This document shows, piece by piece, positions 1,365 through 32,110 of a stretch of 33,646 nucleotides of DNA. Position numbers and translations under genes: made by a program. Every line of letters starts with the position of its first letter. Position 1 is the first letter of the stretch. Under the pieces are notes generated by a model. It did no database searches. It was not told the DNA's origin and saw only the letters and a program-made list of their open reading frames with translations. Source of the stretch: Oscillospiraceae bacterium (GTDB lineage Bacteria; Bacillota; Clostridia; Oscillospirales; CAG-272); assembly GCA_015065045.1 (NCBI GenBank), contig SVRB01000003.1, forward strand, positions 1 through 33,646. The letters run 5' to 3'.

Positions 1365-1868
1365 TTAGAAAAATAATATTTTATGCTTTTCAAATAGTTT
1401 TATCAAAACAATGCCTATTACAAGTCCCACTATTCCCTGAACTGAATTTGCGGGAATGTTTACTGCCGAAGCAACAAAACCGTACATAAAACCTTCAAAT
1501 ATGAAATATCCGAGCACCATAATTATTTCAGCTAAAACACCGCTGATAATTCTTGATGAAAGCTTGCCAAGCTTTTTGTTGCTCAGCTTGAAAACGTAAA
1601 ATGCAACAAGCGCCATTAAGCCCTTTATTACGGCTGTCGCAGGCGCATAGATCACATATCCTGAAAACAAATCCGCCAATGCTGAACCAAGACCTGCAGC
1701 AATAAAGCCATACGCAGGTGAAAGCATCCACCCTGCCAACAATACCATACAGTCGCCCAAATTTATATATCCGTTTAACGGAGAAGGCAGCTTAATAATC
1801 ATCGTTGCCACACATACAAGCGAAGCCACAAGCGCTGTCATAACTATTTTCTTTAATTTCTTATCCAT
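1365..1868 (-). CDS. ECF transporter S component, probably vitamin B6-related (PdxU/HmpT-like)
   Basis: ~167 aa hydrophobic protein with GYINLGD, GLGSALADL and APATAVIKG motifs. Start moved to ATG 1868 (AAAGGGG RBS upstream). Substrate is inferred from the divergent PdxR-like regulator. Confidence 0.8.
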   Translation of the reverse strand: MDKKLKKIVMTALVASLVCVATMIIKLPSPLNGYINLGDCMVLLAGWMLSPAYGFIAAGLGSALADLFSGYVIYAPATAVIKGLMALVAFYVFKLSNKKLGKLSSRIISGVLAEIIMVLGYFIFEGFMYGFVASAVNIPANSVQGIVGLVIGIVLIKLFEKHKILFF

Positions 1869-1961
1869 TTGTATCAATCCCCTTTACATCCTGATATAAA
1901 TAATGTATACTTAATCTGATATTATAACAATCACCAAAATAGGAGTTTTTTATATAACCAG

Positions 1962-3044
1962 ATGAAATATATTGTTGATAAGAAAACACGTCCCGTATAT
2001 TTACAACTCTATAAACAGATACGCGATGATATTGTTGCGGGAAACTATTCATACAAAACAAAGCTCCCCTCTAAACGTAATCTTGCAGATGAAACAGGGG
2101 TCAGCGTTATAACCGTTGAGCACGCTTACGCTTTGCTTTGTGATGAGGGATATGTCGAAGCTAAAGAGCGAAGCGGATACGTAGTTATATTCAGAAAAGC
2201 CGATGGTTTTGCCGTTTCAGACAATATACATACAAAGACCTATAACCATAACGTCGAACATAATTATCCCGATTTCCCGCTATCTGTTTTAAGCAAAACC
2301 TTTCGAAAGGTATTAAACGAGCACGGAGAGCTTTTACTCGAAAAAACATCGAATTTGGGGTGTGCTGAGCTACGCAATGCAATTCGCCGTTATCTTGCGA
2401 GAAATCGAGGTATCCACGTTGATGCAGAACAGATTATTATAGGTTCAGGCTCAGAGTACCTCTACAGACTTATTGTAGAATTGCTTGGAAGACATAGAAT
2501 TTATGCTGTTGAATCACCGTCATATAAAAAAATAGAGCAAGTATACCTTGCAACCGAAATTACATATGAATCGCTTCCGCTTACAAGCACCGGTATTGAC
2601 AGTAATGCTCTTACAAAAACGAAAGCTGAGGTGTTGCATACAACACCTTATCGTAGCTATCCCAGTGGAGTCACTGCAACAGCAACAAAAATGCACGAAT
2701 ATATACACTGGTCGGATAACGGTAATCGTTACATTATAGAGGATGATTATGAGTCAGAATTTTCGGTTTCTACAAAGCCTACAGAAACGCTATTCGCACT
2801 ATCAAAATTTGATAACGTGATATATCTCAATACGTTTTCCAAAACTATATCCCCCTCACTCCGTGTCGGGTATATGGTTCTTCCGAAACACCTTGTGGAG
2901 ACATTTAATAAAAAACTCGGATTTTACTCATGTACAGTGCCAACGTTTATGCAATATGTTCTTACGGAACTAATAAACAACGGCGATTTCGAACGGCATA
3001 TCAACCGTGTCAGACGAAAGAAAAGAAAGGATAATATTATTTAG
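1962..3044 (+). CDS. MocR/GabR-family regulator (GntR wHTH + PLP aminotransferase-like domain), PdxR-like, short form
   Basis: LPSKRNLA...VSVITVEHAYALLCDEGY HTH; IIEDDYESEF; PLP-lysine motif FSKTISPSLRVGY. Confidence 0.9.
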   Translation: MKYIVDKKTRPVYLQLYKQIRDDIVAGNYSYKTKLPSKRNLADETGVSVITVEHAYALLCDEGYVEAKERSGYVVIFRKADGFAVSDNIHTKTYNHNVEHNYPDFPLSVLSKTFRKVLNEHGELLLEKTSNLGCAELRNAIRRYLARNRGIHVDAEQIIIGSGSEYLYRLIVELLGRHRIYAVESPSYKKIEQVYLATEITYESLPLTSTGIDSNALTKTKAEVLHTTPYRSYPSGVTATATKMHEYIHWSDNGNRYIIEDDYESEFSVSTKPTETLFALSKFDNVIYLNTFSKTISPSLRVGYMVLPKHLVETFNKKLGFYSCTVPTFMQYVLTELINNGDFERHINRVRRKKRKDNII

Positions 3045-3632
3045 CTAATAATATCTCTCCCTCCGTCTTTTGCTCCACAAAAGCCACCGTCTCGTTGCGA
3101 CTCGGTCACGGTTCGCTACCTCGCCAGATGGAGGTAAAAACCAGATTTGCGTAAAACGGGACGTCGTGGGCGCCGTCCCCCACAAATACCAATATTATCT
3201 CATAAAACAATAAATCTTCCGCAGACCACGGAGGGTTCCGAGGGAGGAAAGACCTCGGTCGTTTTAAGGGTAGGGTTCAAAGGGAGGGGAAATCGAAATC
3301 CCCTCCCTTGTGCCTTCTTTGGTTACTTTCTTGGCACGCAAGAAAGTAACGTAAAAAAGAAAAGATAATATTATTTCGCAAAATAATACGTCTTTGCCCT
3401 CTCAGTCAGCTTTGCTGACAGCGTCTCGTTGCGACTCGGTCACGGTTCGGCTCTGACATCACACCGTGATGTCATTCACTCCCTCACCGCCGCTTCGCTA
3501 CCCGAGGGGAGAGCCTAAAAGGCACAGAATGTCAGGAGCTTCGCTCCCGAACCCACACAAGAGGCGCACTTTTGAAAAAGTGCCCTCTTGACTCCCTCAA
3601 AACTTTTAATAGATTTTGCGAACTTTGCAAAA
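3021..3632. repeat. Composite palindromic intergenic repeat cluster, copy A
   Basis: Colinear with 31726-32110. Exact shared blocks: 35 nt at 3299-3333 = 31868-31902 and 28 nt at 3531-3558 = 32011-32038. Internal 28-nt repeat 3088-3115 = 3422-3449. Many hairpins. Confidence 0.92.
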
Positions 3633-10600: not shown

Positions 10601-10610
10601 AAATAAAAAA

Positions 10611-10711
10611 CCTCATCTTTCGGATCTGTTCCGCAGGATTTAGCACCTTAAAAAACGTTTTTCAGGTTGCCGGGCATCATAGGGCCTGTCCCTCCGCCAC
10701 TCTTGATAAGG
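10611..10711 (-). ncRNA. SAM-I (S-box) riboswitch upstream of metK
   Basis: Minus strand: CTTATCAAGAG-TGGCGGAGGGACAGGCCCTATGATGCCCGGCAACC...GGTGCTAAATCC...AAAGATGAGG, containing the canonical S-box motifs. Confidence 0.97.
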
Positions 10712-10734
10712 GAATATTCAATTCATACAAATAT

Positions 10735-11435: not shown

Positions 11436-11462
11436 TCAAAACAGCATAGTACTATTTTAATA

Positions 11463-11582
11463 AACTTCTATCATCCGGACTATACCGTCGGCTTTGGAAT
11501 TACACCAAATCAACCTTATTTTCAAAAAAACAAGGCTCGTGGGCTTTACCACCGGTGAGGAATTGCACCTCGCCCCGAAGTT
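11463..11582 (-). ncRNA. FMN riboswitch (RFN element)
   Basis: Minus strand: AACTTCGGGGCGAGGTGCAATTCCTCACCGGTGGTAAAGCCCACGAGC...GATTTGGTGTAATTCCAAAGCCGACGGTATAGTCCGGATGATAGAAGTT. Confidence 0.97.
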
Positions 11583-11597
11583 AATTTCTTATCAGCA

Positions 11598-21388: not shown

Positions 21389-21435
21389 TAAAAAAAGAGA
21401 TTGCATTTACGAGGCTTCTCATAAGGATGTTTAAC

Positions 21436-21500
21436 GTAGGGGCGATCATTGATCGCCCGCAACCATCCGCAAAAAACGGGCGACCGATGGTAGCCCCTAC
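21436..21500. repeat. REPIN-like inverted pair of GTAG-type REP palindromes
   Basis: GTAGGGGCGATCATTGATCGCCCG (21436-21459) and CGGGCGACCGATGGTAGCCCCTAC (21477-21500) in inverted orientation. Confidence 0.8.
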
Positions 21501-21509
21501 AAACGGATT

Positions 21510-21540
21510 TCGGCAGAGAACTTGTTTTCTCTGCCGATTT
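21510..21540 (+). terminator. Terminator-like hairpin after the mre operon
   Basis: TCGGCAGAGAA-N6-TTCTCTGCCGA followed by TTTGTGTT. Confidence 0.6.
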
Positions 21541-21550
21541 GTGTTATAAT
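21522..21550 (+). promoter_or_regulatory. Candidate sigma-A promoter for the YcxB-family gene
   Basis: TTGTTT-17 nt-TATAAT with extended TGn. Confidence 0.55.
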
Positions 21551-21564
21551 GGAATCACCGAAAA

Positions 21565-21697
21565 GCCTCCCTCCGAGAGGGAGGTGGCACGGCGTAGCCG
21601 TGACGGAAGGAGCCTGCGTAATTTTGGGTTTGTGCTAACTTTATTGTAACGCACTCTCCCTCAGTCGCTTCGCGACAGCTCCCTCCCGGAGGGAGCC
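21565..21697. repeat. Inverted doublet of a two-hairpin GC-rich repeat unit
   Basis: 21565-21612 (reverse complement CTCCTTCCGTC-hairpin-GCCACCTCCCTCTCGGAGGGAGGC) and 21656-21697 (CTCCCTCAGTC-hairpin-GACAGCTCCCTCCCGGAGGGAGCC); homologous to 3057-3135 and 3397-3515. Confidence 0.82.
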
Positions 21698-21802
21698 TAT
21701 GGATGCGCTCGTTCATCTTTAGGGGTATGGGCTTTGCCTTGTGCCTTTGTATTACAAAGGCGAAATTTGCGATAAAATACAAAATCAGAAAGGAACTTAC
21801 CT

Positions 21803-31725: not shown

Positions 31726-32110
31726 CGGGAGGAGCAAGCCCCTCCCCTACCAATATCAATATTTTCTCATAAAGCAATAAATCTTCCACATACCAGGGAG
31801 GGTTCCGAGGGAGGAAATCCCTCGGCCGTTTGAAAGGGTGGGGTCAGGGGGAGGGGAGGATCGGAACTCCCCTCCCTTGTGCCTTCTTTGGTTACTTTCT
31901 TGACACGCAAGAAAGTAACGTAAAAAAAGAAAAGATAATATTATTTTGACAAATAATACATCTTAGAAAAAAAGAAAAAAGCTGACGCTTTTTTCGAAGG
32001 AGCACAAAAAGTCAGGAGCTTCGCTCCCGAACCCACACCAAAGATGCTTTTTGAAAAAAGCACCTTTGGAATCCGCAAAAACTTTAATACTTTATTATTT
32101 TTGCAAAAAC
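31726..32110. repeat. Composite palindromic intergenic repeat cluster, copy B
   Basis: Same module order and orientation as 3157-3632; begins with REP half CGGGAGGAGCAAGCCCCTCCCCTAC. Confidence 0.92.

What the first reader, a model, noticed from the sequence alone, without database searches (positions are those of the whole stretch)
3157..3632. Ordered multi-module non-coding element present twice 28.6 kb apart, with structure-preserving divergence
Seen: 3157-3632 and 31726-32110 share orientation and module order. The order is REP half, AT spacer, CCGAGG..CCTCGG hairpin, GGGAGGGGA..TCCCCTCCC hairpin, a perfect 12-bp GTTACTTTCTTG/CAAGAAAGTAAC hairpin, TATTATTT/AAATAATA hairpin, a variable slot, then GTCAGGAGCTTCGCTCCCGAACCCACAC plus a long hairpin. 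Several differences fall in loops (gcacg/acacg; cgca/tgac) or keep pairing. The last stem is CAAGAGG..GCACTTT/AAAGTGC..CCTCTTG in copy A and CCAAAG..TGCTTTT/AAAAGCA..CTTTGG in copy B. Both copies lie just beyond the terminator of a minus-strand housekeeping unit (khpA, clpC). No ORF is conserved and I see no TSD or terminal inverted repeat. Inference: selection acts on fold, not sequence. This fits a non-autonomous ssDNA/HUH-mobilised composite element or a multicopy structured RNA.
Basis: partly seen in the sequence, partly recalled or inferred. Interest (0 to 1): 0.75.

Follow-up and report, generated by a model that had tools for sequence, protein, structure and literature searches.

The report
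Replication-polarised triplex-hairpin mosaic repeat family
The two look-alike stretches are members of a large family of gene-free, modular repeats in this gut bacterium that almost all point the same way relative to chromosome replication and are predicted to fold into three-stranded DNA hairpins, so they likely spread as single-stranded DNA at the replication fork rather than act as an RNA.

Summary
The two copies belong to a family of at least 48 loci in this 1.4-Mb draft genome and 80 in a congener (G004); 10 of 11 genus genomes match. Module order is fixed, module alleles reassort, and orthologous sites are filled or empty without a visible target duplication. Orientation follows the replichore, not flanking genes: 64 of 67 assignable loci in G004 and 36 of 36 here, with a flip at dnaA. 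The bias is only about 2:1 in two more distant congeners and absent in Lysobacter. Density is highest near the origin. Hairpins H1 and H2 carry a covarying mirror-image third strand (purine-motif triplex, a DNA-only fold per PMC4666352). The H3 head is a pan-bacterial pseudoknot plus triplex. Module R matches the REPs of RAYT genes in the genus, module P the BoxC-like flanks of DUF559 genes. No mobiliser for the core was found. No Rfam match; no RNA data. Verdict: a new BIME/BoxC-like variant, mechanism inferred.

The parts
3030..3053 (.).
   Evidence: (family D3)
3055..3134 (-). P module (BoxC-like class II triplex/hairpin of the kind that flanks DUF559 genes) holding a truncated Q insert at 3088-3115
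3157..3183 (-). R: GTAG-type REP (degenerate in copy A)
3190..3220 (.). S: AT-rich spacer
3230..3258 (+). H1: hairpin with a 5' mirror third strand (predicted class I purine triplex)
3266..3307 (+). H2: hairpin with conserved loop and a covarying 5' mirror third strand (predicted class I purine triplex; G-quadruplex is a rival fold in this copy)
3310..3350 (.). H3 head: 11-12-bp stem (3322-3332 with 3340-3350), pseudoknot (3310-3314 with 3333-3337), mirror pyrimidine strand 3315-3320; compatible with a triplex on either strand; found across bacterial phyla
3364..3388 (.). H4: AT-rich hairpin
3395..3515 (-). Variable slot of copy A: P module with the full Q insert (3422-3501) nested in it
3531..3558 (-). 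T: hairpin with a GNA triloop on the minus strand, an inverted counterpart of H1/H2
3558..3606 (.). E: long end hairpin plus tail; right end of the element, often repeated
31726..31750 (-). Copy B, R module; 26 of 26 nt identical to REPs at a RAYT-like gene of a congener (L046)
31757..31787 (.). Copy B, spacer S
31797..31876 (+). Copy B, H1 and H2 (other H2 allele than copy A)
31879..31919 (.). Copy B, H3 head (one mismatch in the pseudoknot helix)
31934..31994 (.). Copy B, H4 and short slot hairpin
32011..32085 (-). Copy B, T and E modules

Best explanation
This is a genome-wide, gene-free mosaic repeat of fixed module order whose hairpins are predicted to fold, as single-stranded DNA, into intrastrand triplexes and a pseudoknot, and which likely spreads and is remodelled at the replication fork by nucleases acting in trans plus recombination between copies. 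Shown: copy number, fixed order, allele reassortment, filled and empty orthologous sites, replichore polarity in two species, covariation of stems, pseudoknot and third strands, identity of R with RAYT-locus REPs and likeness of P to DUF559 flanks. Inferred: that the folds form in vivo; that fork-exposed single strands are the substrate, which imposes one orientation per replichore; that RAYT (for R) and DUF559 (for P) cut or transfer their own modules and that the H1-H2-H3-T-E core either rides along or has an unidentified partner; that gene conversion through the invariant linkers shuffles the interior; that copies survive mostly beyond gene 3' ends because they are harmless there.
For: Family: 48 loci in G000 and 80 in G004; 10 of 11 genus genomes, 1 of 13 other genera of the family and 1 of 16 other families match copy B. 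Order H1<H2<H3 kept in 85 of 85 loci with two or more core modules; T after H3 in 51 of 53. H1 x H2 allele combinations: 12 of 18 in G000, 14 of 18 in G004. Nearest neighbour in the same genome for 45 of 50 cores; the two orthologous core pairs rank 18th and 32nd of 36. Orthologous sites, G004 to G000: 12 filled (all same orientation, other interior), 17 without the core, 38 unresolved of 67 with both flanks; reverse: 13 filled, 2 empty, 8 unresolved of 23. Polarity: G004 64 lagging, 3 leading, 13 unassigned of 80; G000 by synteny 36, 0, 12 of 48; at convergent junctions, where transcription is symmetric, H3 17:1 and T 27:1, the exception lying beyond dnaA. Triplex: H2 third strand matches its own duplex better than shuffled partners (46 distinct types, 7.85 vs 6.47 +/- 0.13, 0 of 2000), including T-for-A swaps; H1 6.37 vs 5.84 +/- 0.14. 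PMC4666352 (passage) states purine-motif triplexes cannot form in RNA. 160 distinct H3 heads from many phyla: pseudoknot length 3.16 vs 2.11 +/- 0.08, mirror run 5.46 vs 3.80 +/- 0.08. R matches 4 of 8 RAYT-like loci and 0 of 4 IS200-like loci; P matches 8 of 17 DUF559 loci by BLAST. Lagging-template insertion of IS200/IS605 and TnpA-REP-driven BIME recombination are described in PMC3333891 and PMC3971601 (passages).
Against: No mobiliser for the core: no Y1 transposase in G000 (80% complete) or G004 (97%), no DUF559 in G000, none among 135 ORFs beside H3 heads. No precise ends, cleavage sites or circles were found; the two species are only about 82% identical, so empty-site junctions are blurred. 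Polarity is weaker in G003 (T 8:3 by skew, 11:5 by synteny; H3 7:0 and 4:2) and G007 (H3 15:9 and 15:8), with both orientations on single contigs, and absent for the H3 head in a closed Lysobacter chromosome (22 of 36, my tally). One T-E locus just right of dnaA in G000 (C55:4653) looks like an exception. G000 and G004 share 12-13 ancestral sites and G000 was assigned through G004, so the counts are not independent. Skew right of dnaA is weak (four-fold z -0.5; raw skew flips from -0.052 to +0.036). Folding signals are split: H1/H2 third strands work on the plus strand, while wobble pairs (45 vs 16) and GNA/GNNA loops (33 vs 6) favour the minus strand, which mutation bias could also produce. 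In vivo footprinting did not detect the E. coli triplex (PMC4666352 section 20).
Confidence: 0.55

Rival explanations
1. A host-selected polar chromosome signal: the folds act on the fork itself (pausing, restart, loading of a repair or segregation factor) or insulate convergent genes, so orientation and the origin-proximal gradient reflect function, not insertion.
For: Near-absolute polarity in two species; 8, 4, 4, 3 loci per 36 kb moving away from dnaA and none or one on four large low-GC contigs; density vs GC3 rho 0.87 over 20 contigs; sites stay occupied while interiors change; BoxC/PIT elements block DNA polymerase in vitro (PMC4666352 passage).
Against: Patchy distribution: the H3 pattern is in 71 of 401 genomes of the order and 14 of 47 of the family; many empty orthologous sites; weak polarity in G007; the same paper reports no in vivo effect.
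Confidence: 0.17
2. A multicopy structured RNA (or mRNA 3' element): the H3 head is an RNA pseudoknot with a U-rich major-groove triple helix that stabilises or protects transcripts.
For: H3 geometry on the plus strand fits an RNA H-type pseudoknot with pyrimidine triples and an A-rich third loop (geometry judged from general knowledge); copies sit mostly at gene 3' ends; a terminator-like hairpin separates gene and element at only 80 of 165 gene ends, so many copies may be transcribed; the H2 loop reads like a T-loop on the minus strand (recalled consensus).
Against: Orientation is independent of flanking genes at convergent sites; H1, H2, T and P covary as purine-motif triplexes; no cUUCGg tetraloop among 263 distinct hairpins on the plus strand; promoter-like sites not above shuffles in a convincing way; no Rfam family at gathering score.
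Confidence: 0.13
3. No dedicated mobiliser: palindromic and mirror repeats grow by slippage, template switching and gene conversion near the origin, and strand-asymmetric deletion leaves one orientation.
For: No partner gene for the core; concerted evolution; partial tandem duplications of S-H1 and E; correlation with GC3, a proxy for gene conversion (general knowledge).
Against: Whole ordered elements of 0.4-1 kb appear at otherwise empty sites; nested inserts have sharp ends (insert I sits in a 5-nt duplication in one H2 allele); cognate REP-RAYT and P-DUF559 pairs exist in the genus.
Confidence: 0.15

Closest known systems
REP / BIME mosaics and REPINs with RAYT (TnpA-REP) (PMC3333891, PMC3733652: passages read; PMC2817692, PMC3116915: search listing only)
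   Same: Intergenic, multicopy, gene-free mosaic of palindromic modules, mostly at convergent or tandem junctions; contains a GTAG-type REP whose cognate RAYT exists in the genus; species-specific alleles.
   Different: REP is one optional module; the core (H1-H2-H3-T-E) is not built from REPs; one fixed polar order instead of alternating REP pairs; strong replichore polarity; triplex and pseudoknot folds; no RAYT found in the two best-studied genomes.
BoxC / PIT / TMECO intrastrand-triplex repeats (Holder et al. 2015, PMC4666352: abstract, passages, sections 16, 18 and first part of 20; supplement could not be searched)
   Same: Intergenic purine-motif triplex-forming repeats; P is class II-like; origin-proximal clustering was noted for E. 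coli K-12.
   Different: TMECO is a 37-nt class II unit with no strand bias; here several class I, II and IV units are chained in 0.3-1 kb with a pseudoknot, nested inserts and replichore polarity.
IS200/IS605 family and their non-autonomous derivatives (PMC3971601, PMC3333891: passages)
   Same: No terminal inverted repeats or target duplication seen for the whole element; sub-terminal hairpins; orientation bias tied to replication.
   Different: No match of any module to 4 IS200-like tnpA loci of the genus; no defined left and right cleavage sites; interior is reshuffled.
Clostridiales-2 RNA (RF02937) and STAXI motif (PMC2864571: passages)
   Same: Structured repeats of Clostridia; repeated pseudoknots proposed as possible ssDNA (STAXI).
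   Different: RF02937 scores 23.5 bits against a gathering score of 58.6, on one copy only; STAXI did not appear among the matches.

Membership tests
REP/BIME (RAYT-associated) | GTAG-tagged short palindrome present in many intergenic copies | tested here: met
   R module
REP/BIME (RAYT-associated) | Cognate RAYT gene carrying the same REPs | tested here: inconclusive
   Met in 4 of 8 RAYT-like loci of relatives; none found in G000 (80% complete) or G004
REP/BIME (RAYT-associated) | Element built from REPs in alternating orientation separated by linkers | tested here: not met
   Architectures: core of non-REP modules in one polar order, R optional
REP/BIME (RAYT-associated) | Cleavage and strand transfer by TnpA-REP | not testable with these tools
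   needs biochemistry
BoxC/TMECO triplex repeat | Mirror-plus-inverted repeat able to form a purine-motif intrastrand triplex | tested here: met
   Covariation for H2 and H1, inspection for P and T
BoxC/TMECO triplex repeat | TMECO consensus: class II, 9-nt stems, 3-nt second loop | tested here: not met
   P has a long hairpin in the second loop, H1/H2 are class I (against the consensus); by inspection, no pattern scan
BoxC/TMECO triplex repeat | Triplex formation by CD/NMR | not testable with these tools
   needs biophysics
IS200/IS605 non-autonomous element | Ends shared with a tnpA-encoding IS | tested here: not met
   No module matched 4 IS200-like loci
IS200/IS605 non-autonomous element | Replication-linked orientation bias | tested here: met
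   G004 and G000; weak in G003 and G007
Classical MITE | Terminal inverted repeats and target-site duplication | tested here: not met
   None seen; junctions are blurred at 82% identity
Rfam RNA family | Score above a gathering threshold | tested here: not met

The most novel reading that the evidence does not exclude
A class of fork-coupled single-stranded-DNA mobile mosaics whose recognition units are intrastrand triplexes and a pan-bacterial pseudoknot-triplex head rather than plain hairpins, assembled from modules that each have their own domesticated nuclease (RAYT for REP, the non-HUH DUF559 for BoxC-like P, an unknown one for the core), and laid down with strict replichore polarity and an origin-to-terminus gradient. 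It would give biological intrastrand DNA triplexes a first concrete role.
Probability: 0.25. Interest if true: 0.8.

Novelty: new variant of a known kind. Interest (0 to 1): 0.55.

Why it matters
Intrastrand triplex repeats such as BoxC have had no assigned function since the 1990s and were reported without strand bias (PMC4666352). Here the third strand covaries with its duplex over many natural alleles, which is comparative evidence that a purine-motif DNA triplex is under selection, and the host element is polarised by replication. That makes the link between triplex folding, the fork and candidate nucleases (RAYT, DUF559) directly testable. The family takes up 1-2% of these small genomes and breaks their assemblies (24 of 48 loci at contig ends). 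The existence of such mosaics was already noted by this scan on other DNA.

Tried and rejected
Rfam: only sub-threshold hits. Y1_Tnp and DUF559 in the own genome: none. Exact head patterns in viral contigs: 0 and 0; a looser pattern gave 58 stretches, whose neighbouring ORFs I listed but did not scan. Copy B against plasmid and phage collections: no match. Pfam scan of 135 ORFs beside heads in 80 genome loci (the first 135 of 236 listed ORFs; viral ones left out): mostly housekeeping, no transposase. No RNA holder listed; contigs of four DNA runs confirm parts of copy A and show alternative slot contents but cannot address expression. One pattern was badly designed and found nothing. parS and DnaA-box counts (recalled motifs) were uninformative. 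Polarity in closed genomes: Lysobacter shows no bias; the Saprospiraceae and Spirochaetota genomes have too few independent copies; the closed genome G033 has none; five head-rich genomes of the order are not closed. Heads in G247, G094 and G226 are few, and some recur at a fixed spacing; in G094 and G226 they would lie mainly on the leading strand if those records start at oriC, which I did not check. A family-wide census of the exact head and a polarity test in another family (G113) remain open. Rejected: significance of the 28.6-kb spacing; a role as intrinsic terminator of the whole element (the genes have their own); TIR/TSD-type MITE. The P-pattern count at DUF559 genes (15 of 16 loci vs 53 of 1274 control genes) used a pattern written after seeing those flanks, so I rely on the BLAST count (8 of 17). 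Literature searches that found no description of this element, its head or its polarity: (open-access library only).

Full report
Observation. Copy B folds about ten standard deviations better than shuffles on either strand. Copy A extends left to about 3030. Rfam gives no match at gathering score; the only hits touching the copies are weak.

It is a family, not a pair. BLAST and module clustering give 48 loci in the own genome (1.40 Mb, 80% complete) and 80 in G004, a congener of about 82% nucleotide identity. Copy B matches 10 of 11 genomes of the genus but only 2 of the other 30 genomes searched. The order H1-H2-H3 holds in 85 of 85 loci with at least two of these modules, and T follows H3 in 51 of 53 (loci were oriented by their core modules, so this check is partly built in). 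The slot after H4 holds P, P with a nested Q, R, or a short A/T hairpin; an insert I sits in the H2 stem or in the R loop. Three H1 alleles and six H2 alleles occur in 12 and 14 of 18 combinations in the two genomes. Cores have their nearest neighbour in the same genome in 45 of 50 cases, and the two orthologous core pairs that could be compared are not each other's closest relatives. Of 67 G004 loci with both flanking genes, 12 are filled in G000 (same orientation, different interior), 17 lack the core (some hold only R or P units) and 38 are unresolved. In several clear pairs the element stands between the two terminators of convergent genes, with no visible duplication. At the khpA and clpC sites G004 keeps the T-E end with another interior, and G007 has a bare terminator at khpA. 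So copies are gained or lost as blocks and are remodelled in place.

Orientation follows replication. Leading strands were called from skew at four-fold degenerate sites, and dnaA was located at G004 C26:143956. With the origin set there, 64 of 67 assignable G004 loci have the window's plus strand on the lagging strand; 13 of 80 were unassigned. The two loci right of dnaA are reversed. At convergent junctions H3 is 17:1 and T 27:1 before allowing for the origin, and the exception is that locus. Tandem junctions occur in both gene directions in about the expected ratio. In G000, assigned by synteny to G004, 36 of 36 agree and 12 are unassigned, one of which (C55:4653, just right of dnaA) looks discordant. 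Limits: the two genomes share ancestral sites; skew right of dnaA is weak; in 20 stretches each of G003 and G007 the ratio is only about 2:1 with noisy calls; the head in the closed Lysobacter chromosome shows 22 of 36 (my tally). PMC3971601 (passages) reports that IS orientation biases are strongest in Firmicutes and can also arise through the sliding clamp, so polarity points to the fork but does not by itself prove a single-stranded substrate. Density falls away from dnaA (8, 4, 4, 3 per 36 kb) and tracks GC3 over 20 contigs (rho 0.87); four large low-GC contigs hold one locus in 483 kb. That these are terminus-proximal is an inference.

The modules are triplex units. [quoted passage not shown] In H2 the purine-rich run before the hairpin is the mirror image of the hairpin's purine arm and changes with it from allele to allele, including T opposite A; over 46 distinct types from 82 copies the match is 7.85 against 6.47 +/- 0.13 for shuffled partners (0 of 2000), and 6.75 when read parallel. 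Copies with insert I were left out, and some rows were split imperfectly by the script. H1 gives 6.37 against 5.84 +/- 0.14 over 41 types. Types are related, so these are not probabilities. T reads as the same design on the minus strand and P as a BoxC-like class II unit with a hairpin in its second loop (inspection). G-quadruplex is a rival fold for copy A's H1-H2, but alleles with two-G runs keep the mirror. Over 160 distinct heads the loop pairs with the upstream strand (3.16 vs 2.11 +/- 0.08 nt) and the upstream pyrimidine run mirrors the purine arm (5.46 vs 3.80 +/- 0.08). The pseudoknot lead came from earlier finding e1-5000762 and was checked here. On 40 aligned cores all four helices hold, 96.1% paired. 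Wobble pairs (45 vs 16), GNA/GNNA loops (33 vs 6) and folding energy (82 of 110 loci with RNA, 79 of 110 with DNA parameters) favour the minus strand, the lagging-strand template, whereas H1 and H2 triplexes need the plus strand. Both strands therefore carry folds, arranged as an inverted pair of ends; this fits DNA better than one transcript.

Partners. RAYT-like Y1 genes occur in several congeners but not in G000 or G004; R units match 4 of 8 such loci at 93-100% and none of 4 IS200-like loci. DUF559 genes occur in 9 of 11 genus genomes by the tally (8 by its rows), three in G004 and none in G000, and are bracketed by P-type units (8 of 17 loci by BLAST). H1-H2, H3 and T-E matched none of these loci, and 135 ORFs beside heads in other genomes include no transposase. 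The mobiliser of the core is unknown.

Mechanism. Most likely (0.55) a non-autonomous mosaic that is cut, copied or recombined as single-stranded DNA at the fork, with module-specific nucleases in trans and gene conversion between copies; the model follows what PMC3333891 (passages) shows for TnpA-REP and BIMEs, extended by inference. Rivals are a host polar signal (0.17), passive repeat dynamics (0.15) and a structured RNA (0.13). No RNA run was available, and a terminator-like hairpin shields the element at only 80 of 165 gene ends by a crude scan.

Novelty. It works like a BIME, contains a true REP and BoxC-like units, but fails membership of BIME, TMECO, IS200/IS605 derivatives and MITEs on tested features. 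Nine searches of the open library found no description; the supplement of PMC4666352 could not be searched and its database may list individual motifs. New variant of a known kind, interest 0.55.

Noticed in passing
window 21435-21700: Cluster of two inverted GTAG REPs and an inverted pair of P units without the core, upstream of a YcxB-like gene; the orthologous junction in G004 holds a full element and lacks that gene.
   Followed up: partly
L044:1544-1738, L047:1433-1628, L046:1654-1849: REP pairs lie inside the RAYT open reading frames, read in frame, not only beside them.
   Followed up: no
G000 C8, C3, C58 and others: Nested mini-insert I (about 43 nt) sits in the H2 stem, with a 5-nt duplication in one allele, and in the opposite orientation in the R loop; nested insert Q sits in P and R. 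They may be independent mini-elements that target hairpins.
   Followed up: partly
G247 C1:906937-1328140: H3-like heads all on one strand, several in pairs about 3.1 kb apart, a spacing that suggests rRNA operons.
   Followed up: no
G041 C1:478563-481310: Five H3 heads in tandem at 679-nt period in a Saprospiraceae chromosome.
   Followed up: no
window 10610-10712 and 11459-11586, minus strand: SAM riboswitch before metK and FMN riboswitch before an ECF-type transporter gene; ordinary.
   Followed up: yes
window 1365-3044: ECF S-component and GntR/aminotransferase gene pair maps to another G004 contig than the khpA side, so copy A sits at a synteny break.
   Followed up: partly
G004 C26:151094, C23:5201, C23:19483: Three intact-looking DUF559 genes, each with P units beside it; their strand would be the leading one if C23 follows the element rule.
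   Followed up: partly
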